A stretch of 64,000 nt of DNA from an uncultured Acidobacteriaceae bacterium. Its GTDB lineage: Bacteria > Acidobacteriota > Terriglobia > Terriglobales > Acidobacteriaceae. The stretch is from the NCBI GenBank assembly GCA_963808025.1, contig CAWEEI010000006.1:145519-209518 (forward strand), written 5' to 3'. A program made the translations under genes and the position numbers. The notes under the pieces were generated by a model. It made no database searches. It was given only the letters and a program-made list of their open reading frames with translations, and was not told the origin of the DNA. The stretch's first letter is position 1; each line of letters opens with the position of its first letter. Shown here one piece after another: positions 8,668 to 19,837 of this stretch.

Positions 8668-10190
8668 ATGAATCAGGAACGGATGTCGGGAGTGCTGCTG
8701 CATGTGACGTCGCTGCCCTCGTACGGCGGGGTGGGCGACTTTGGGCCGGCGGCGTACGAGTTTGTGGACTTTCTGGCGGCGGCGAAGCAGCGGCTGTGGC
8801 AGGTGCTGCCGCTGAGTCCGACGGGGTATGGGAGCTCGCCTTATTCGGCGCTGTCGGCGTTTGCGGGAAACCCGATGCTGATCTCGCTGGAGCGGCTGGT
8901 GGAGGATGGATGGATTGCGGGGGAGCGGCTGGCGGGGCTGCCGGGGCGGGATGGGCCGGCGGACTTTGGCGCGGCGGCGAGGCAGAAGCTGCCGCTGATC
9001 GAAGAGGCGGCGGGGAACTTTCTGGACGGCGCGAATGAGGAGCAGAGGGCGCGGTTCCAGCGGTTCTGCGAAGAGAACATGAGCTGGCTGCCGGACTATG
9101 CGATGTTCAACGTGCTGCGGCGGCGGTTCGGCTATAGTGAGCTGGAACGAGTGGCCGGCGGAGTTTGCGCAGCGCAAGCACGATGCGTTGACGCAGGCGC
9201 TGACCAAGCATGGGCGCGAGATTGCGGTGGAGCAGGCGATCCAGTTCTTCTTCGATGAGCAGTGGTGCGCGCTGCGGGCGTACTGCAAGGAGCGCGACAT
9301 CCGCATGCTGGGCGATGTGGCGATCTTTGTGAACTACGACAGCGCGGACGTGTGGACGCATCCGGAGCTGTTCGAGCTGGACGAGAAGGGGCAGCATGGT
9401 GCGGGTGTCGGGCGTGCCGCCGGATTATTTTTCCGCGGACGGGCAGCGCTGGGGCAATCCTTTGTACAAGTGGGGCGAGATGCGGGAGCGCGGGTTCGAC
9501 TGGTGGGTGGCGCGGGTGCGGCGGACGCTGGCGCTCTACGACATGATCCGGCTGGACCACTTTCGCGGGTTCGAGGCGTACTGGTCGATTGCGGCGGAGG
9601 AGCCGACGGCGATCACGGGACAGTGGGTGAAGGCGCCGGGGCAGGAGCTGTTTCCAGCGGCTGAAGGAGGTGTTTGGCGAGCTGCCGTTTATCGCGGAGG
9701 ACCTGGGGCTGATTACGCCTGAGGTGGATGAGCTGCGCGAGCAGTTCGGGATGCCGGGGATGCGGGTGCTGCAGTTCGGCTTCTCCGATCGCGGAGCGCA
9801 TATTTATCTGCCGCACAAATTTGTGCCGAATACGGTTGCATATACGGGCACGCACGACAACGACACCACGCTGGGATGGTGGAAGGACGGCGCGACCGAG
9901 GTGGAGCGGGCGAACTGTGCAGACGTATCTGCGGCCGATTGCGCGGGACGAGGAGGTGGTGTGGGCGATGATGCGGGCGGCGGCGCGGTCGGTGGCGAAC
10001 CTGTGCATCTTTCCGCATGCAGGACATTCTGGGGCTGGGCAGCGAGGCGCGCATGAATACGCCGGCGGCGAGCCAGGGCAACTGGACGTGGCGGTATGCG
10101 AGCGGGGCGCTGCATCCGGAGTATGCGGAGAGGCTGGCGGCGCTGATGGAGATGACGGACCGGGATGGGTACGTTGCGCCGCGGCTATGA
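8668..10190 (+). CDS. malQ: 4-alpha-glucanotransferase (amylomaltase, GH77); frameshifted
   Basis: SGVLLHVTSLP, WQVLPLSPTG, SPYSALSAFAGNP, SGVPPDYFSADGQRWGNP, RLDHFRGF, IAEDLG, YTGTHDNDT. Confidence 0.95.
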
Positions 10191-10262
10191 GGCGCCCAAG
10201 GCGGTGTGAACGATGCCGCGGTTTAGACTGGTGGGAGCGAAATTCAATCTACAGGAGCAACG

Positions 10263-10448
10263 ATGCCTCTCTCTGGCGAAGCAATACGGACGATGAACTA
10301 TGTGGACGATATCTCGGTGACGCTGCGGCGCATTCTGACGGTGCTGCCGTCGCTGACGGAGGAGGAGCGGCAGCGCGTGGCGGAGCACATCAAGGAGTCC
10401 GACCCGAGCTACGAGAGCGTGATCCAGGCTGTGCAAGGCAAGAAGTGA
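10263..10448 (+). CDS. Small helical hypothetical protein (61 aa)
   Basis: AGGAG RBS; MPLSGEAIRTMNYVDDISVTLRRILTVLPSLTEEERQRVAEHIK; coding-like codon usage. Confidence 0.75.
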   Translation: MPLSGEAIRTMNYVDDISVTLRRILTVLPSLTEEERQRVAEHIKESDPSYESVIQAVQGKK

Positions 10449-10451
10449 GCT

Positions 10452-11041
10452 GTGGCTGACGCGGTTGGGCCGGGGGCGCCGGGAGGGGCGTTTGCGATTC
10501 GCACGGTGGCGGTGATTGGGGCGGGGCGCGTGGGGCGGAGCTTTGCGCTGGCGTGCGCGGCGGCGGGGTTCGACGTGGTGCTGGAAGATGTGATGCCGGC
10601 GAAGCTGCGGCGCGCGCAGGAGGAGTATGCGGAGCTGGGGGCGGTGCCGGCTGCGGGTGCGGGGCGGCTGCGGGTTGCGCTGACGGTGGAGGATGCGGTG
10701 CGCGAGGCGGATGTCGTGGTCGACTTCGTGCCGGATGAGCTGGAGTCGAAGCTGGAGATCTTTTGCCTGGTCGACCGGATGGCCCCGCCGAAGACGGTGC
10801 TGCTGACGCCGAGCGATGCGCTGAGCATTACGGATCTGGCGTCATGCACATATCGCGGCGAGCGGTGCTTTGCGGTGCGGGGTGGGTTGGCGAGCGGGCG
10901 GTGACGGTGCGGCTGGTGCATCCGAAGGGTGCGGCTGCGGAAGCGTCGAATGCGGTCGGGTCGTTCCTGCGCGCGCTGGGATATGCGGTGCAGGTGGAAG
11001 AGGACCGGGATGCGCCGATGCTGGTGAAGAATTACTTGTAG
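10452..11041 (+). CDS. 3-hydroxyacyl-CoA dehydrogenase NAD-binding-domain protein (short form); frameshift near 10900
   Basis: VAVIGAGRVG Rossmann motif, DAVREADVVVDFVPDELESKLEIF. Confidence 0.75.
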
Positions 11042-11929
11042 CCCATGCCGGCGAGGACGCCGCGCATGTAGGCGAAGCTCTCGACGACGCCGGGCATGGG
11101 GTTGTCGGCGTGGATCTCGTATTCGAGGTCGACGTTGCCGGGGTATTTGATTTGCGATGAGCGCCTCGAAGATGGCGCGGATGGGCATGACGCCTTCGCC
11201 GACGGCGACCTGGCTCTCGCGCGCGGTGGCATCGGCGAGGTCCTTGATGTGGAGGTCGTAGAGGCGCGGGCCGGCGGCGTGGATGGCGGCGACGACGTCG
11301 GCGCCGGCGCGCATGGCGTGGCCGAGGTCGATGCAGAGGCCGATGCGCGGGTCCATGTCCTTGACGGCCTTGAGCACGTCGAAGGGCGAGGGGAAGTTCT
11401 TGTCCTCGGGGCCGTGGTTGTGGATGGCGAGCTTGATGTTGTATTCCTTGACGAATTTTTCCAGGCGCGGAAGGTTCTCGTGCGTCGGCGCGCAGACGGC
11501 GATGGGGATGCCGGCGGCCTTGAGGTATTCGAACTTGGGGCGGATGTCGTCGTCGTCATCCTTGGCGAAGGTGATGTTGCCGGCGGCGGTGAGGATGAAG
11601 CCGGCGGCGCGGTATTCGGCGGCCTTGGGCGCGACCTGATCAAGCGGCGTCATGGGCAGATGCGCATCCTTGAGGTTGAGCAAGGGTGTCTTGAGCTGGT
11701 GCATGAAGTCGATGAGGTGCGCGGAGTCGAAGCTGCGGAAGGTGTAGCTGGCGATGCCGAGGCGGATGGGGAGATCGACGGCAGGGGTGGGCGGCTTGAG
11801 TGGCGTCGGGTGCGCGGGATGGGCGGAGGATTGGGATTCGGATTCCGCGGGCAGGAGGGTGGCTGCGGCGGCCAAGGCGCCGGTCTGGAGGAGGGTGCGG
11901 CGGGTGATTGAGTTTGTCGTGGTTTTCAT
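11032..11929 (-). CDS. Tat-exported sugar phosphate isomerase/epimerase family (TIM barrel); frameshift near 11150
   Basis: TRRTLL Tat motif; IKLAIHNHGPED, GLCIDLGH, LHIKD, VDLEYE. Confidence 0.88.
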
Positions 11930-11995
11930 CGCGCGCAATGGTAGCGCGTGGGGTGGGGGTGAGTCTATGGGCGGAGGGGTGGGAGGGTGATCGCG

Positions 11996-12283
11996 TCAGT
12001 CAAGTCGCATCAGTTCGAGATCGCCGTCCCACTGCACCTTGCCGCGGAGTTTAAGAATGCCACGTTGCAGGTGATAGGGACTTATGCGCCGGTAAAGTCC
12101 GCGCTCCACTCTCACAAACAATTCGCTTTCACTCCCGTTTCCTACTGCGTGCTTTCCAAGGAAGGTGTTGTAGGTACGGTCTGCCCAGCCCGGGCAGGCC
12201 TTTCGAACCATTGCGGCGTTGAAGGGCTCTGACAGTCTGTGGTCACGGACAGCCGCGTAGATTTGTGATCCGAATGTCTTCAT
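11996..12283 (-). CDS. Hypothetical protein with VapB/DUF2191-like C-terminal tail
   Basis: Lower-GC ORF MKTFGSQIYAAVRDHRLSEPF...; tail QRGILKLRGKVQWDGDLELMRLD. Confidence 0.55.
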   Translation of the reverse strand: MKTFGSQIYAAVRDHRLSEPFNAAMVRKACPGWADRTYNTFLGKHAVGNGSESELFVRVERGLYRRISPYHLQRGILKLRGKVQWDGDLELMRLD

Positions 12284-12305
12284 ACATGTTTTGTCTCCCA
12301 GCAGC

Positions 12306-12703
12306 TCAGCGTCTTTCCTGTTCCCATAAACGATATAAATTATCGCTCGGTAGACCAATTGCAGAACGGAAGCCCAAAGTAAACCCGATTTTCCAGCAGA
12401 GTCTCTCGTCAGCCTCTCGGTCGATATTCCTGGAAACTTCCTGGAAATGTTTGTTCAGCGCCTGATGCTCTGCTTGCGTGGCATTTTGATCGGGTTTCAT
12501 TTCCGCGTCTAGAAGTTCCCCTGCTGCACTACTAAGTTGACCATCCTTTTCGCTGTAATAGTCGATCGTTTCAGATATTCGCACGAGCATTCCACTAGTA
12601 GAGTGGTCACGAACAGGACTATCGCCAGCCTATGCCACCACTTCTTACTTAGGCCTAGCTGCCGAAACTTATTGCGGAATGGGAATAGTACGCTGAGCTC
12701 CAT
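12306..12703 (-). CDS. Lower-GC hypothetical membrane-anchored protein, probably frameshifted or decayed
   Basis: Overlapping ORFs 12509-12703 (KKWWHRLAIVLFVTTLLV) and 12306-12590. Confidence 0.35.
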
Positions 12704-12726
12704 GGCTCATTCTAGTCAGCTCCGCA

Positions 12727-14095
12727 TCAGTCTTCGGGTTTTTTGCGGAGGGCGGTGAGCTGGGGGTGGAGGAGTTTGGCGGTGAGGGAGCGGGTGAGGG
12801 CGTCGACCGCGGCCTGCTGCGCGGGGGTGAGGGGGGTGGCGGTGCCGGCGAGTTTGGCGGCGGTGCGGGCGAGTTCGGCCTGGCGGAGGGATTCGGCGTA
12901 TCTGCTGCAGGGCGAGGATGGCGGGGACGGCGTCGAGCGATTCGAGGCGCTGGTGGTACTTGTCGACCTCGGCGGTGACGATGTTCTCGGCGGCGGCGGA
13001 CTCGCGGCTGCGGTCGGCGAGGTGGGCGGCGGCGACCTGCTGCAGGTCGTCGATGTCGTAGACGAAGCAGCCCTCGACCTCGTTCATGCGCGGGGTCGAC
13101 GTCGCGGGGGACGGCGATGTCGATGAAGAACATGGGGCGGTGGCGGCGGCGCTCGAGGAAGGCGCGGCCGTGGGCGCGGTCGAAGATGTGGCGTTCGGAG
13201 CCGGTGGAGGTGATGACGATGTCGGCGCGGCCGGCCTGGGCGTGGAGCTGGTCGAAGGGGATGACTTCGGTGGTGCAGGCGAGCGGGCGGGTCGTTGGCG
13301 ATCTGGGTTGAGATGAGCTCGGCGATCTGGCCGGCGATGAGGGCGGCGCGCTCGGCGGTGCGGTTGGCGACGAGGATGGAGGTTGCGCCCTGCTGGATGA
13401 GGTGGCGGGCGGCGAGCTCGGACATCTTGCCGGCGCCGACGAGCAGGACGGTCTTGCCTTGGAGGCAGCCGAAGATCTTGCGGGCGAGGTCGACGGCGAC
13501 CGAGGCGATGGAGACGGAGGAGCTGCCGATCTGGGTCTCGGAGCGGACGCGCTTGGCGACGGAGAAGGCGCGCTGGAAGAGGGGTTCGAGCGCGGTGGCG
13601 ACGGCGCCGGCCTCGCGGGCGACGGTGTAGGACTGCTTGACCTGGCCGAGGATCTGCGGCTCGCCGACGACCATGGAGTCGAGCGAGCTGGCGACGCGGA
13701 AGAGATGGCGGATGGCCTCGCGCTCGCGGAACTCGTAGAGGTGGGGCTCGACGGTGGCGGCGGGGATGGCGAAGTACTCGTGCAGGAAGCGGAGGAGGTT
13801 GGGGGCGGCGGATTGCTGCGCGGCGGGGTCTGGCTGCGATTGGAAGGTGAGGAACTCGACGCGGTTGCAGGTGGAGAGGATGAGGGCTTCGCGGATGCCG
13901 GGCTGCTGGGTGAGGGTGCGGATGGCGTCGGCGAGGCGGGCGGCGGGGATGGCGAGGCGCTCGCGGACCTCGATGGGCGCGGTGGTGTGGTTGACGCCGA
14001 CGAGCACGAGCGAGCCCTCGGGCGCGCGCCGCGGCGCGGCGTCGGGCGCCGAGGCCGGGGGCACGATGGTCAGGCGCTGCGTGGATTTGGCTCAT
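12727..14095 (-). CDS. hemA: Glutamyl-tRNA reductase; frameshifted
   Basis: LVGVNHTTAPIEVRERLA, LSTCNRVE, SSLDSMVVGEPQILGQVK, GAGKMS, FFIDIAVPRD, YDIDDL. Confidence 0.95.
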
Positions 14096-14926
14096 GGCGT
14101 GGCGAACCTGTGCACGGCGGAGAACTGGTTGGCCGCCCAGACGGCGAGGACGACGAGGAAGACGAAGCTGGAGAGATAGACGGCGCGGCGGCCGCGCAGG
14201 CCGGAGCTGCGGCGGATGAAGATCATGGCGATGTAGGCGAGCCACATGGCGAAGGCGAGCAGGATCTTGGGGTCGCGGAAGTAGGCGGCGCCGAAGTCCT
14301 GCTGGGCGATGACGGAGCCGATGAGCAGGCCGGCGGTCATGCAGGGCAGGCCGAAGAGGAGGGTCTTGAGGGCGATCTGGTCGATCGTTTCGAGCGGGGT
14401 ATCGAGGGGCGGGAGAAAGTGGTGGGTGGTGGACTTGGATTTGAGGCGGCGTTCCTGAATCAGGTAGAGCAGCGAGGCGAGCAGCGAGCAGAGCAGCGCG
14501 GCGTAGGCGGCGAGGAGCAGGACGATGTGGAGGAAGATCCAGCCGGTGCGGAAGGGGACGGCGAAGGTCCTCGTGCCCGGGACGGAAGGCGGCGAGCATG
14601 GCGAGGAGGAAGGCGATGGGCAGCAGGAAGATGCCGATGGAGACGCTGCGGTAGCGGGCGTAGACGGCGAGGAAGGCGAGCGCGAGGATGAGGGCGAGGA
14701 GGGACTGGATCTCGTGGGTCTCGACGGGCAGGCGATGGTGGGCGGCGTTGAGGGTCTCGGCGAGGGAGACGAAGTGGAAGAGGACGGCGGCGACGGCGGC
14801 GGGGATGGCGAGGCTGCGCCACGCAGGGCTGACGCGGGCGGGATCGGCGGAGAGCGCGGCGGGCAGCACCGCGAGGGCGGCGATGCCGTAGAGGACGACC
14901 GCGACACGGAGCCAGAGGAGGGTCAT
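14092..14926 (-). CDS. CcsA/HemX-like cytochrome c assembly family membrane protein; frameshift near 14580
   Basis: Multi-TM; [36 protein letters not shown]; overlaps the hemA start. Confidence 0.85.
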
Positions 14927-15113
14927 AGAAGAGTTAGGGCCACCTTGCAGTATATCCGGCGGGCGGGCATGGACGCGGGCGCGCGCGGGTTGGAGTTGCG
15001 TGCCGGGCATCTGGTATCAGGGTCGGCGAGGGAGGGCAGTATGGGCAGTGACGTTGGTCACAGGGAGTCAGCTTGAGTGCGCCAAGGGTGGGGTGCGGTA
15101 TTCTGGCGGTTCG

Positions 15114-18028
15114 GTGAGCGATGCGATGAAGGTGGATGCGGCGAGGGCGGCGGCTGAGCAGACGCCGGTGATGCGGCAGTACTTCGCGGCGAAGCAGGCG
15201 CACCCGGACTGCCTGATGTTCTGCCGCATCGGGGACTTCTACGAGCTGTTCTACGAGGACGCGATTGTGGCCTCGCGCGAGCTGCAACTGACCCTGACCG
15301 CGCGCGACCGCGAGAAGAAGCAGCCGATGTGCGGCGTGCCGTACCACGCGGCGGAGCAGTACATCCAGCGGCTGCTGCGCAAGGGCTACCGCATCGCGCT
15401 GTGCGAGCAGATGGAAGACCCCAAGCTGACCAAGAAGATCGTGCGGCGCGAGGTGACGCGGGTGCTGACGCCGGGGACGGTGGCGGATTCGGGGCTGGGG
15501 GCGGAGCAGAGCAACTGGCTGGCGAGCGTGGCTGCGGTTGGGGCGGGTCCGGCGGCTGTGCGTGGGGCTGGCGCTGGTGGATCTGTCGACGGGGGAGTTT
15601 CGCGCGACGGAGTTTGCCGGGGCGGGGGCGTGGGCGCAGTTGGCGGATGAGGTGGGGCGGGTGAGGCCGGTGGAGATGTTGTTCGCGGAGGGTGGGCTTC
15701 GGAAGGTACAACAGCAGGTCCGTCGGCTCCGCTGCGCTTCGCTCAGGATGACAATTCTGTCGGGGCTTTGGGGAAGGAAGGCGGGAGCGGCGGTGGATGG
15801 TTGGAGGGGGTGCGGACGAGGACGGCGCTGGAGGATTGGGTGTTTACGGCGGAGTATGCGGTGCCGCTGCTGCGGCGGCACTTTGGGGTGCAGTCGCTGG
15901 ATGGGATGGGGCTGGGCGGGCATGAGGCGGCGGCGGTGGCGGCGGGGGCGCTGGTGCATTACTTGCAGAAGACGATGCAGGGTGGGCTGGAGCATGTGGA
16001 TGCGGTGCGGTTTTACGAGCGGGCGGAGGTGCCTGGCGCTGGATGCGGTGAGCGTGCGGAATCTGGAGCTGGTGGAGCCGCTGTTTTCGGGCGAGTCGGC
16101 GCAGACGACGCTGTTCCATACGCTGGATGCGTGCTGCACGCCGATGGGCAAGCGGCTGCTGCGGGCGACGCTGCTGCGGCCGGCGAGCGAGTTGGCGGGA
16201 GATTGAGGCGCGGCTGGATGCGGTGGGCGAGGCGGCGGGCGACCTGCGGCGGCGCGAGGGGGTGCGGCGGGCGATGGATGGGCTGCTCGATCTGGAGCGG
16301 CTGCTGGGGAGGGTGGCGCTGGATTCGGCTGGGCCGCGGGAGGTGATGGCGCTGGCGGGCGACGCTGGCGTGTCTGCCGGGGGTGCGGGAGGCGGTGGGG
16401 AGGTTTGAGGCGACAGGTGGAGGGAGCTGGTGGGTGGAATTTCCACAGCGAATTCCACAGGGATTTCCACAGAAAATCCGCTGGATTTCCCCGGTATATC
16501 CACAGCATCTTCCACAGGGATTTCCACAGGATTCGACGCGATGGAGGACCTGCACCGATTGATCGTGGAGACGGTGGTGGAGGAGCCTCCGGTGACGCTG
16601 GCGGATGGTGGGGTGATGCGCGCGGGGGTGGATGCGGAGCTGGATGAGCTGCGGGAGCTGGGGCGGTCGGGGCGGCAGGCGCTGGCGGGGATTGAGGAGC
16701 GGGAGCGGCAGCGGACGGGGATTGGGAGCCTGAAGGTGAGGTTCAACTCAGTGTTTGGGTATTACCTGGAAGTGACTAAGGCGAATAGCAGATCGGTTCC
16801 GGCGGATTATGAGCGGAAGCAGACGCTGGTGAATGCGGAGCGGTTTACGACGCCGGAGCTGAAGGAGTATGAGGCGAAGATTTTGACGGCGCAGGAGCGG
16901 TCGGGGGAGATCGAGCGGCGGATCTTTGCGCGAGCTGCGGCGGCAGCTGCTGGACGCGGCGGGGCGGATGCGGGAGACGGCGCGGCGGGTGGCGGAGATC
17001 GATATGCTGGCATGTTTTGCACATCTGGCGGCGCTGCGGGGGTGGGTGCGGCCGCAGGTGGAGGATTCGGGGGTGCTGGAGTTTGTGGCGGGGACGGCAT
17101 CCGGTGGTGGAGAGGAGGATGGAGGAGTCGGGCGGGGGGAGGTTTGTGCCGAACTCGATCTCGCTGGAGGGGTGGTTGGAGGGGACGGACGAGAGGCAAC
17201 CCACCCTTTCCGATGAAACTGGAAAGGATGGGCCACCCGAGGGTCGTGGCTCGTCTGGGCACCTGCGTCGATTGCGCTGATTACGGGGCCGAATATGGGG
17301 GGCAAGAGTACGTATCTGCGGCAGGCGGCGCTGCTGGTGGTGATGGCGCAGTGCGGGGTGTTTTGTGCCGGCGGAGCGGATGCGGCTGGGGCTGGTGGAC
17401 CGGATCTATACGCGGATTGGGGCGAGCGACAATGTGGCGCGGGGGCGGTCGACGTTTATGGTGGAGATGACGGAGACGGCGGCGATTCTGAACACGGCGA
17501 CGGCGCGAAGCCTGGTGCTGCTGGATGAGATGGGGCGTGGAACTGCGACATACGATGGGCTTTCGCTGGCGTGGGCGACGGTGGAGCATCTGCATGAGAG
17601 GATCGGGGCGCGGACACTGTTTGCGACGCACTACCACGAGCTGACTCTGCTGGCGGAGCGGCTGCCGCGGCTGAAGAACCTGCGGGTGACGGTGAAGGAG
17701 ACGGCGGGCGGGATCGTGTTTCTGCATACGGTGGAGGCGGGGGCGGCGAGCAAGAGCTACGGGATCGAGGTGGCGCGGCTGGCGGGGCTGCCGACGGGGG
17801 TGATTGCGCGGGCGCGGGAGGTGCTGAAGCTGCATGAGCGGGCGGAGACGCAGCAGGTGGCGCAGTGCGCTGGAGCCGGCGGGAGGGGCGATGCAGATGA
17901 CGATGTTTACGCCGCTGTCGCAGAGGATTGTGGACCGGATGGCGGCGGTGGATGTGGATGGGCTGACGCCGCGGGAGGCGCTGGCTCTGCTGGCGGAGTT
18001 GCAGCGCGAGTTGGGAGCCAGCTCATGA
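15114..18028 (+). CDS. mutS: DNA mismatch repair protein MutS with internal insertions; frameshifted
   Basis: [98 protein letters not shown]. Confidence 0.97.
16434..16530 (+). repeat. Phased 11-12 bp direct-repeat array of TCCACA (DnaA-box-like) inside mutS
   Basis: TCCACA at 16442, 16454, 16466, 16499, 16511, 16523; degenerate copies at 16477 and 16488; inverted half (gtggaa) at 16434. Confidence 0.85.
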
Positions 18029-19268
18029 TCGCGAGGTCGAAACCGAAGGCGATGGTGGTGGCGGGGGTGATGAGCGGGACGTCGGCGGATGGGGTCGATG
18101 TGGCCGTGTGCCGGATTGCGCCGGGGGCGCGGGCGGGGGATGCGCCGCGGGTGAAGCTGCTGGGGCATGTAGGGGTGGGCGTATCCGCGGGCGGTGCGGG
18201 CGGAGGTGATGCGGGTGATGGAGGGGGAGCGGTGACGGCGGCGGAGATGAGCCGGCTGAATTGGCGGCTGGGGGAGATTTATGCGGGGGCGGTGGTGAAG
18301 ACTTGTTGGGAGGTGGGTGTCGGGGTGGGGAGAATCCCCACGTCAGACCAAGGTCTGACATGGGGCACCCAAAGGCGTTGGGGTTGGTGGGGATGCATGG
18401 GCAGACGGTGCATCATGACGCGGCGGGAGTGCGGGCGCTGGGCGCGCGGGTGCGTTCGACGTGGCAGATGGGCGAGGCGGCGGTGGTGGCGGAGCGGGTG
18501 CGGTGTCCGGTGGTGAGCGATTTTCGGCCGGCGGATCTGGCGGCGGGCGGGCAGGGTGCGCCGCTGGTGCCGATGCTGGACTGGTGCCTGTTCCGGTCGA
18601 AGACGCGAGGGAGGGTGCTGCTGAACCTGGGCGGGATTGCGAATCTGACGGCGATCCCGGCTGGGGGTGGGTTGGAGGAGGTGGTGGCGTTCGATAGTGG
18701 GCCGGGGAATATGGTGATTGATGCGTGCATGGGGGAGCTGTATGGGAAGCGGTACGATCGCGGTGGGGCGGTGGCGCGGCAGGGGCGGGTGATGCGGGGG
18801 GTGGTGGGGAGGGTGATGCGCGAGCGGTACTTCCCTGCCCTGCCGCCGAAGTCGTGTGGGCGGGAGGAGTTTGGGGCGGGGTTTGCGGCGCGGTTTATTG
18901 CCATGTGCCGGGATGCGGGTGGGAGCGATGCGGATGTGGTGGCGACGGCAACGGCACTGACGGCGGAGTCGGTGGTGGAGGCGTATCGGCGGTTTGTGAT
19001 GGAGAGGTTCGCGGGGTCGAAGGTGGAGGCGATTGTGGCGGGGGGTGGGGTGCGGAATGGGACGCTGATGGGGATGCTGCGGGAGGGATTCGGCGGGCTG
19101 GGGGTGAGGGTGCGGGCGATGGACGAGGTTGGGGTTCCGGCGCAGGCGAAGGAGGCGGTGGCGTTTGCGCTGCTGGCTTGGCTGACGTGGCATGGGAGGG
19201 CGGGGAATGTTCCGGCGGCTACGGGAGCGGGGCGAGCGGTGGTGCTGGGGAAGGTTTCGTTCGGATGA
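18025..19268 (+). CDS. anmK: Anhydro-N-acetylmuramic acid kinase; frameshifted
   Basis: [70 protein letters not shown]. Confidence 0.95.
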
Positions 19269-19837
19269 CCACTCTTGGGAGCAAAGATCGGTGGTGGAAT
19301 CGGCGGGTGCCAACCCTGAAGATTAGTGTCCTCGTGGGAGTTGTTTTGATTGGGTTCCTCGCGTTTCTGTTTTGTGGGGATTTTGTCGCGAACGCTGTGT
19401 GGAGTGTTAGCCATCGACGAGCGGCGAGCTTTCGAGGACAGACTCTGAAGCTGCCTTGGCTATGGCGGGAAGAAGCGTGGACCAACTACAACGAGTTTGA
19501 TCTGACTCGGAGATATGTTGGGGTTGCGTTGCCTTCGACGGCGATGGTCAGGTATGTGAATCTTTCGAAGGCGGATGTTCCGAGGGAGATAGACGGCTTC
19601 CGAAGACTCTACGCCAACCTATCTAGCAAGGCGCCCGGTACATATACACGCGAAGATTTGATTGATGCCATTTTCGTCTGCGAGGATCAGGGGTCCAATC
19701 GGTCACAGATTCTTTTCATCAATTGCATCTCTCGGGATGGCCGTTGGAGGGTTACGTTTATTGGCCTGGAACGGAGCCGGTCGAACTTCGAGATGATTCT
19801 GAAAGGGGTGGCGTCGATGGGGACTCCGTCGAAGTGA
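19265..19837 (+). CDS. Lower-GC hypothetical membrane-anchored protein
   Basis: ATGA overlap with the anmK stop; N-terminal TM (VLVGVVLIGFLAFLFCG). Confidence 0.6.
   Translation: MTTLGSKDRWWNRRVPTLKISVLVGVVLIGFLAFLFCGDFVANAVWSVSHRRAASFRGQTLKLPWLWREEAWTNYNEFDLTRRYVGVALPSTAMVRYVNLSKADVPREIDGFRRLYANLSSKAPGTYTREDLIDAIFVCEDQGSNRSQILFINCISRDGRWRVTFIGLERSRSNFEMILKGVASMGTPSK

What the first reader, a model, noticed from the sequence alone, without database searches (positions are those of the whole stretch)
16434..16530. Helically phased DnaA-box-like array in-frame inside mutS
Seen: in a GC- and G-rich gene, a ~100 bp AT-richer patch holds six TCCACA cores plus two degenerate ones, spaced 12,12,11,11,11,12,12 bp (about one helical turn), preceded by an inverted copy (gtggaa-t-ttccac). 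The 9-mers (ATTTCCACA x3, AATTCCACA, ATATCCACA, TCTTCCACA) are 1-2 mismatches from the DnaA box TT(A/T)TNCACA. The frame stays open, giving [33 protein letters not shown], which does not look like MutS core sequence. Established: phased box arrays template DnaA oligomers at oriC, and extra-origin clusters (E. coli datA/DARS, B. subtilis DnaA-box clusters) regulate initiation. Inference: this may be an intragenic DnaA titration or regulatory site, or a DnaA roadblock coupling mismatch-repair expression to initiation. Skew does not flip here, so it is unlikely to be oriC itself.
Basis: partly seen in the sequence, partly recalled or inferred. Interest (0 to 1): 0.82.

Follow-up and report, generated by a model that had tools for sequence, protein, structure and literature searches.

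The report
DnaA-box array hidden inside mutS
A clade of soil and peat Acidobacteriaceae keeps a run of DNA motifs matching binding sites of the replication initiator DnaA, written in-frame into a tolerant loop of the mismatch-repair gene mutS and conserved as DNA rather than as peptide, where it likely soaks up DnaA away from the replication origin (binding untested).

Summary
Confirmed and extended. Six exact TCCACA boxes sit in a 93-nt in-frame insert in a MutS loop. It is the densest box cluster in this (68% complete) genome.

The same loop carries 1-6 boxes in 22 of 125 genus genomes, forming one clade. Selection acts on the DNA: 65 of 75 Ser-Thr pairs use TCC ACA (genome 24 of 1489), although flanking silent sites have diverged to 5-87% identity. 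Boxes also survive Ser-to-Cys changes and shifts of reading frame. 21 of 22 arrays hold a pair with a 2-3 bp gap, the E. coli 'double DnaA box'. The 9-mers match those at the candidate oriC (dnaN-upstream, box + trios) and beside parS.

It is not an origin: skew is the same on both sides of the loop in 20 of 20 genomes. The conserved DARS inverted pair and the datA IHF site are missing. Similar in-frame pairs occur in lhr (another genus), purL and an amidohydrolase.

Best reading: an extra-origin DnaA sink like the B. subtilis DnaA-box clusters, but encoded inside a gene. DnaA binding and function are untested.

The parts
15114..18028 (+). mutS (MutS1) host gene; frameshifted in this assembly, intact in relatives
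   Evidence: tblastn against an intact relative; that relative passes the NCBIfam MutS cut-offs; extra bases absent in short-read contigs of relatives
16433..16531 (+). Variable loop between W-R-E-L-x and F-D-A-M-E-D-L carrying the 93-nt in-frame insert; aligns just before E. coli MutS F400
   Evidence: PDB alignment
16439..16471 (+). Box triplet 1: ATTTCCACA, AATTCCACA, ATTTCCACA at 12-bp steps (3-bp gaps)
   Evidence: matrix scores 14.6, 11.4, 14.6 bits
16474..16493 (+). Two degenerate sites, probably spacer only
   Evidence: 0.4 and 0.7 bits
16496..16528 (+). Box triplet 2: ATATCCACA, TCTTCCACA, ATTTCCACA at 12-bp steps, 33 bp after triplet 1
   Evidence: 13.3, 11.8, 14.6 bits
15700..15765 (+). 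REP-like interspersed repeat in another MutS loop (not part of the array; shows the gene tolerates inserts)
   Evidence: end motif has 74 copies in the genome with up to 1 mismatch
17190..17255 (+). Second REP-like palindromic repeat inside mutS
   Evidence: hairpin; end motif has 121 copies with up to 1 mismatch
18025..19268 (+). anmK (anhydro-N-acetylmuramic acid kinase), overlapping the mutS stop; would share any transcriptional roadblock
   Evidence: best NCBIfam matches, below cut-off on the frameshifted piece

Best explanation
The insert is a DNA-level-conserved array of same-direction, DnaA-box-like 9-mers inside the mutS coding sequence, which likely binds DnaA cooperatively and acts as an extra-origin sink or inactivation site that damps re-initiation, like the DnaA-box clusters of B. 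subtilis. Shown: clade-wide conservation of the motif as DNA; double-box spacing; match to the family's candidate origin boxes; not an origin by skew. Inferred: DnaA binds pairs with 3-bp gaps as head-to-tail dimers or oligomers, and 12 bp is the only in-frame spacing inside the 11-12 bp range DnaA accepts. The peptide is then a tolerated by-product in a loop that also accepts unrelated repeats. Further inferred: the site probably lies in the late-replicating half of the chromosome, so its copy number would double late in the cycle. SeqA, YabA and a clear Hda were not found in the genomes checked, so DNA sinks may carry more of the control.
For: 22 of 125 loops carry arrays, forming one clade together with one box-less genome, SH-aLRT 98. 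TCC ACA in 65 of 75 Ser-Thr pairs against 24 of 1489 genome-wide. Thr third base is A in 45 of 50 loop pairs in G-rich genes and 17 of 20 in C-rich genes, against 11 of 146 and 6 of 78 in the flanking core. Flanking four-fold sites are only 5-87% identical. ATTTGCACA (Ile-Cys-Thr) occurs 3 times, and 3 of 72 boxes lie in other frames. Spacing is 12 bp in 29 and 11 bp in 2 of 50 intervals, never 13-14. A double box is exact in 17 of 22 arrays and has a one-mismatch partner in 4 more. E. coli DnaA prefers pairs 2-3 bp apart and loses binding at 4 (PMC11317965, passages). A matrix built from other genomes' dnaN-upstream and parA-upstream boxes ranks this array first in the genome. The same 12-bp pair is a family-wide intergenic element at lepA-skp, where no frame constraint applies. 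No SeqA or YabA match in 5 of 5 near-complete genomes; besides DnaA only partial AAA+ matches. Deleting extra-origin clusters causes early initiation in B. subtilis (PMC3245932, passages).
Against: No binding or phenotype data. Only 7 of 72 boxes are perfect TTWTNCACA: TTATCCACA 3, TTTTCCACA 3, plus none other; the commonest, ATTTCCACA, has one mismatch. This DnaA has His where the conserved Asp of the recognition helix lies, so its specificity is unmeasured. In B. subtilis the strongest in-vitro sites inside ORFs were not among those detected in vivo, and rplB showed no binding by ChIP-PCR, possibly because of transcription (PMC4447404, passages). Only two of six B. subtilis clusters affect initiation, and terminus-proximal copies work less well. 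103 of 125 relatives manage without the array. The matrix training was partly circular (sites picked by position and core motif). Sampled skew did not locate oriC independently. No closed genome carries the array, so its chromosomal position is extrapolated from relatives.
Confidence: 0.5

Rival explanations
1. DnaA binds the array mainly to act as a roadblock or attenuator of mutS-anmK transcription, tying mismatch-repair supply to the initiator state.
For: DnaA bound at datA contributes to attenuating read-through transcription (PMC10950094, abstract). The E. coli DnaA regulon includes DNA-repair genes (PMC11317965, abstract passage). Two of the host genes (mutS, lhr) are repair-related. The orientation is the same relative to mutS in 22 of 22 arrays.
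Against: Fixed orientation follows from a single origin. The lhr, purL and amidohydrolase boxes face the other way. The loop takes unrelated inserts in 21 genomes. Box number drifts from 1 to 6.
Confidence: 0.17
2. A different Acidobacteriaceae DNA-binding protein recognises the TTTCCACAG pairs, for example a nucleoid or segregation factor that also uses the lepA-skp site.
For: The consensus differs from TTATCCACA at positions 1-3. The pair was found in 75 of 277 family genomes but 0 of 23 genomes of the sister family. The DnaA recognition helix is altered.
Against: The same 9-mers sit at the box-plus-trio position upstream of dnaN and beside parS. The spacing equals the DnaA dimer rule.
Confidence: 0.1
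3. DnaA binds the array, but the effect is positive or structural: a DARS-like reactivation or timing signal when the late region is copied, or a chromosome-folding contact, rather than a sink.
For: mutS lies 66-98% along the replichore in 11 of 12 closed, array-less genomes. The array clade has dnaA detached from dnaN.
Against: DARS needs oppositely oriented boxes I and II (PMC6868365, passages). A reverse box occurs in only 2 of 22 loops.
Confidence: 0.15
4. A neutral 12-bp slippage repeat or a Ser/Thr linker kept for its peptide.
For: A tandem 12-bp unit and variable copy number. Repeats within one genome share codons by descent.
Against: The core is identical across genomes whose silent sites have flipped from G-rich to C-rich. 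The 3-bp gaps vary, with 11 kinds in 29 pairs. Boxes persist after amino-acid and frame changes.
Confidence: 0.05
5. The array is an origin or backup origin.
For: Densest box cluster in the genome; a skew flip about 15 kb away.
Against: Four-fold skew has the same sign on both sides of the loop in 20 of 20 array genomes, r = 0.99. No T-rich stretch or trio run flanks it, whereas dnaN-upstream has both. The assembly has 13 such flips.
Confidence: 0.03

Closest known systems
B. subtilis extra-origin DnaA-box clusters (DBC yydA-yycS, ywcI-vpr; PMC3245932, passages)
   Same: Cluster of DnaA-box-like sites outside oriC, in a lineage where SeqA and a clear Hda were not found; predicted negative control.
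   Different: All six DBCs are intergenic and mostly oriC-proximal. This one is in-frame in a conserved gene, probably oriC-distal, clade-restricted, and has no binding data.
E. coli double DnaA box (PMC11317965, passages)
   Same: Same-direction 9-mers with 2-3 bp gaps, usually followed by G.
   Different: The E. coli sites in the table rows seen are single pairs upstream of genes. Here triplets and multiple pairs are embedded in codons, with a relaxed 5' end.
E. coli datA (PMC10950094 abstract; PMC5835720 passages)
   Same: Extra-origin box cluster crossed by transcription; mix of consensus and one-misfit boxes.
   Different: No IHF-consensus site near any of the 22 arrays; coding rather than non-coding; far from oriC.
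E. coli DARS1/DARS2 (PMC6868365, passages)
   Same: Three or so close boxes away from oriC; DARS2 lies at a mismatch-repair gene (mutH promoter).
   Different: Lacks the conserved inverted box I/II pair.
In-ORF DnaA sites of B. subtilis (codV, rplB; PMC4447404, passages)
   Same: Boxes inside a coding sequence.
   Different: Those were reported as in-vitro sites, with rplB unbound in vivo. Here an inserted array is kept by DNA-level selection across a clade.
REP/RPE-like palindromic repeats inserted in-frame (class name recalled)
   Same: Use the same MutS loop and keep the frame.
   Different: The array is a single-copy direct repeat, not a multicopy palindrome.

Membership tests
DnaA box / double DnaA box | 9-mer close to TTWTNCACA and to the organism's own origin boxes | tested here: met
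   1-2 mismatches; 11.4-14.6 bits against a training median of 13.2 (partly circular); TCTTCCACA occurs at the box-plus-trio site of a relative and ATTTCCACA beside parS in two relatives
DnaA box / double DnaA box | Same-direction pairs with a 2-3 bp gap | tested here: met
   17 of 22 arrays exact, 4 with a one-mismatch partner, 1 without
DnaA box / double DnaA box | Bound by cognate DnaA | not testable with these tools
   needs EMSA, footprint or ChIP
B. subtilis-type DBC | Box cluster outside oriC | tested here: met
   candidate oriC on another contig, at least 0.6 Mb away here and at least 1.2 Mb in G052; no skew switch at the loop
B. subtilis-type DBC | Intergenic, mostly oriC-proximal location | tested here: not met
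   in-frame in mutS; mutS is oriC-distal in closed relatives
B. subtilis-type DBC | Loss causes early initiation | not testable with these tools
   needs recoding in a cultured strain
datA | IHF site among the boxes | tested here: not met
   0 of 22 arrays have an E. coli IHF consensus (recalled motif, up to 1 mismatch) within about 150-250 bp
datA | Stimulates DnaA-ATP hydrolysis | not testable with these tools
   biochemistry needed
DARS | Oppositely oriented boxes I and II | tested here: not met
   reverse box in 2 of 22 loops, not conserved
oriC | Strand-skew switch at the site | tested here: not met
   0 of 20 genomes discordant
oriC | DnaA-trios and AT-rich unwinding element next to a box | tested here: not met
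   absent at the array; present upstream of dnaN in 15 of 15 genomes (13 by pattern, 2 by eye)
REP/RPE repeat | Multicopy palindrome | tested here: not met
   no other copy in the genome; no Rfam match; weak fold, z = -2.9 against mononucleotide shuffles, explained by the non-conserved inverted start

The most novel reading that the evidence does not exclude
Acidobacteriaceae repeatedly evolve replication-control elements inside protein-coding genes: double DnaA boxes are written in-frame into permissive loops (mutS in one clade, lhr in another genus, purL and an amidohydrolase elsewhere). In the mutS clade this dual-coded DnaA sink arose with the move of dnaA away from oriC and times initiation from a late-replicating locus.
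Probability: 0.3. Interest if true: 0.85.

Novelty: new variant of a known kind. Interest (0 to 1): 0.7.

Why it matters
How bacteria without SeqA, Hda or YabA time initiation is open, and initiator titration is still being tested experimentally (PMC13674477, passages). A compact array whose boxes can be removed by synonymous recoding, without touching the protein, is a clean test of titration in a barely studied phylum. It also shows regulatory DNA sites being gained, and kept, inside core genes. Origin finders and annotation pipelines that look only at intergenic DNA would miss such sites, and would read this insert as a meaningless linker. As by-products, the work gives a candidate oriC, a relaxed DnaA-box consensus and a family-wide second box site for Acidobacteriaceae.

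Tried and rejected
Deriving the consensus from 'oriC near dnaA' in this genome failed: dnaA is detached from dnaN and has no box cluster beside it.

Locating oriC by skew was inconclusive. The window's genome has 13 minus-to-plus flips. KOPS listings were truncated. Twenty 12-kb samples each of G088 and G052 were too noisy.

The idea that the array replaces lost dnaA autoregulation was not supported. The dnaA promoter keeps one CTTCACA box in 11 of 11 array genomes and a CTTCACA or TTCACC site in 8 of 9 array-less ones; read by eye, as my pattern missed it.

The link with dnaA-dnaN separation is real but is one event. 0 of 21 array genomes have the two genes within 65 kb on one contig, against 86 of 94 others; most array genomes are fragmented. 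It was not replicated: in genus g9 all 24 genomes with both genes have them apart, whether or not lhr carries boxes. G064 is separated without an array, and G075 has an in-frame triple with the genes adjacent.

IS-end or REP origin of the array: no similar copy. Rfam: nothing. Promoter and terminator scan: at chance level.

The first tree misplaced the window's row because of frameshifts; it was rebuilt. Habitat was not inferred from the small-share runs. Earlier-findings look-ups were empty. PMC7738170 was read in passages and not used.

Full report
OBSERVATION. Six exact TCCACA cores start at 16442, 16454, 16466, 16499, 16511 and 16523, with two 2-mismatch sites between them; the patch is 49% GC and in frame. 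In the 3.58-Mb, 68%-complete assembly it is the only cluster of more than three such cores and the top cluster of boxes with at most one mismatch. The insert has no other copy in the genome and no Rfam match. The gene is mutS with frameshifts. Short-read contigs from independent runs, two of which span the array at about 95-97% identity, lack the extra bases, so the frameshifts are probably assembly errors and the array is real.

THE SITE. I searched 151 genus genomes; 135 had the mutS segment. I read the loop in 125; one was split across contigs and nine weak or partial matches were not fetched. In 82 genomes the loop has no insert (6 nt or less). In 21 it has an unrelated insert, 18 of them with REP-like repeat ends by a permissive pattern. 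In 22, including the window's genome and the unpublished G009, it carries 1-6 boxes. The loop aligns just before E. coli MutS F400. In a rooted tree of 72 rows (58 array-less genomes and G069 left out), 21 array genomes plus box-less G166 form one clade, SH-aLRT 98; a single clade is not rejected, p-AU 0.78. A scan of all GTDB species for a box joined to the downstream MutS codons gave 27 hits. Fourteen were in mutS of records titled Acidobacteriaceae, Acidobacteria or Granulicella, four of them new loops with 2-4 boxes; 13 were unrelated. One new loop has a 13-bp step, in a record that is frameshifted there.

DNA, NOT PEPTIDE. In 21 array loops (G069 left out as frameshifted), 65 of 75 Ser-Thr pairs are TCC ACA. 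The genome-wide figure is 24 of 1489, and flanking codon use predicts 1.8%; the genomes are kin, so no p-value is claimed. The stronger control is divergence. Four-fold sites next to the loop are 45% identical on average and 5% between the window's genome and G144, because mutS sits on G-rich strands in some genomes and C-rich strands in others. Yet the Thr third base stays A in 45 of 50 and 17 of 20 loop pairs, against 11 of 146 and 6 of 78 in the core. Three boxes are ATTTGCACA, which changes Ser to Cys but varies only the free position of the box. Three of 72 boxes lie in other frames, two of them in 11-bp pairs (G114, and G009, unpublished). The gaps vary (11 kinds in 29 pairs) while the cores do not. 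This rules out a peptide function and makes neutral slippage unlikely.

WHOSE MOTIF. No box cluster lies beside dnaA in this genome. Upstream of dnaN, 15 of 15 genomes show a box, then CTA-type trios, then a T-rich stretch, with further boxes on both sides. This is the unwinding-module layout of B. subtilis oriC (PMC8287927, passages; PMC13220808, passages). dnaA is within 12 kb of dnaN in 76 of 94 array-less genomes, so I take this site as candidate oriC; skew sampling could not confirm it. A second cluster lies between parS and parA. A matrix of 50 boxes from these two sites in other genomes is relaxed at positions 1-3. It scores the six mutS boxes 11.4-14.6 bits (training median 13.2) and the two degenerate sites below 1, and ranks the array first in the genome; training was partly circular. 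Of 50 intervals between exact boxes, 29 are 12 bp and 2 are 11 bp, none 13-14, and 21 of 22 arrays contain such a pair. E. coli DnaA binds in vivo mainly to pairs 2 or 3 bp apart and loses binding when one base is added (PMC11317965, passages). The 12-bp pair TCCACAGNNWTTTCCACA occurs in 75 of 277 family genomes across 22 genera, in 0 of 23 sister-family genomes, and the reversed control once. Of 50 loci inspected out of 79 matches, 35 are one intergenic site between lepA and skp. So 12 bp is preferred even where no reading frame forces it. Caveat: DnaA here has KHHTT where B. subtilis has RDHTT (10 of 10 parsed loci), in the helix that reads the box (PMC5043019, passages).

NOT AN ORIGIN, NOT DARS, NOT datA. 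Four-fold skew has the same sign on both sides of the loop in 20 of 20 array genomes, 14 G-rich and 6 C-rich. Reverse boxes occur in 2 of 22 loops and IHF-like sites near none; DARS needs an inverted pair (PMC6868365, passages). In 12 closed genomes, all array-less, mutS lies a median 86% along the replichore from dnaN. In array-bearing G052 it is at least 1.2 Mb from dnaN.

RECURRENCE. Among the 15 non-lepA loci, in-frame pairs lie in lhr (3 genomes), purL and an M20 amidohydrolase, all on the non-coding strand. A triple lies in a putative metalloprotease gene of G075 (no NCBIfam match). In genus g9, 7 of 31 parsed lhr loops begin with ATTTCCACA on the reverse strand, 5 with an exact second box 12 bp away, while the encoded residues vary. 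Monophyly of these seven was not tested. The purL, amidohydrolase and G075 cases are single genomes and could be chance.

CONTEXT. dnaA is within 65 kb of dnaN on one contig in 0 of 21 array genomes and 86 of 94 others; where contigs are long the gap is 70-718 kb. This is one evolutionary event and was not replicated in g9. SeqA and YabA were not found in 5 near-complete genomes, and besides DnaA only partial AAA+ matches.

MECHANISM. Most likely DnaA occupies the double and triple boxes cooperatively, and the locus removes or inactivates initiator. B. subtilis clusters do this: their joint deletion raises ori/ter 1.37-fold, and ectopic copies work in proportion to dosage (PMC3245932, passages). 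Titration by chromosomal boxes is established in outline (PMC5835720 and PMC13674477, passages). Against: in-ORF sites of B. subtilis bound in vitro were not seen in vivo (PMC4447404, passages), and most relatives lack the array. I put DnaA binding at about 0.85 and the sink role at 0.5. A roadblock on mutS-anmK, a positive or structural role, and another protein are the rivals.

NOVELTY. Nine full-text searches listed no paper whose title or abstract start describes DnaA boxes in Acidobacteria or a selected in-frame box array. The library lacks most subscription journals, bioRxiv supplements were closed, and the predicted-origin supplement of PMC8287927 was not opened. The finding is a new variant of a known kind: it works like an extra-origin DnaA-box cluster but fails the intergenic, oriC-proximal, IHF and inverted-pair features of the named members. 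Claims resting on unpublished G009: one of the 22 arrays, one of the two 11-bp frame-crossing pairs, and one row in the trees and dnaA-dnaN counts; the conclusions stand without it.

Noticed in passing
L044:3880-4090, L042:3620-3830, G000:C5:345950-346330: Family-wide intergenic site between lepA and skp: a reverse box, about 170 bp, then a 12-bp double box beside a terminator-like hairpin. It accounts for 35 of 50 inspected matches. Function unexplained; possibly the family's main extra-origin DnaA site.
   Followed up: partly
L164:1170-1290 (G000:C5, about 453.6 kb): Candidate oriC upstream of dnaN: box, CTA trios and T-rich stretch, conserved in 15 genomes.
   Followed up: partly
L037:4021-4225 (G000:C5, about 488.1 kb): parS sites followed by a conserved cluster of 4-5 boxes upstream of parA.
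   Followed up: partly
L290, L287, L291, L307-L309, L326: In-frame reverse-strand double box at the start of a variable loop of lhr in 7 of 31 genus g9 genomes.
   Followed up: partly
L300:1469; L256:1500; L192:1500: Single-genome in-frame box runs in purL, an M20 amidohydrolase N-terminus and a putative metalloprotease. The purL of G191 is the large single-chain type, and dnaN was not found in G191 at the threshold used.
   Followed up: no
L001 and L032-L036, L079-L082: DnaA recognition helix reads KHHTTVMHS, with His in place of the conserved Asp, in all 10 parsed loci.
   Followed up: partly
G000:C4:570 kb against C5:454 kb: dnaA is detached from dnaN throughout the array clade and throughout genus g9.
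   Followed up: yes
window 15700-15765 and 17190-17255: Two REP-like repeats inserted in other MutS loops; their end motifs have 74 and 121 copies in the genome. Six array loops also hold such a repeat end beside the boxes.
   Followed up: partly
window about 1500-2500: Minus-to-plus GC-skew flip, one of 13 in this assembly, suggesting many inversions or misjoins.
   Followed up: no
G122, nine places: parS appears as a variant palindrome at nine sites on eight contigs instead of the usual form.
   Followed up: no
12 closed genus genomes: mutS is kept in the terminus-proximal part of the chromosome, a median 86% along the replichore, if oriC is at dnaN.
   Followed up: partly
window 9600-19300: Many genes (hemA, ccsA-like, anmK and others) are broken by single-base indels, consistent with long-read assembly error.
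   Followed up: no
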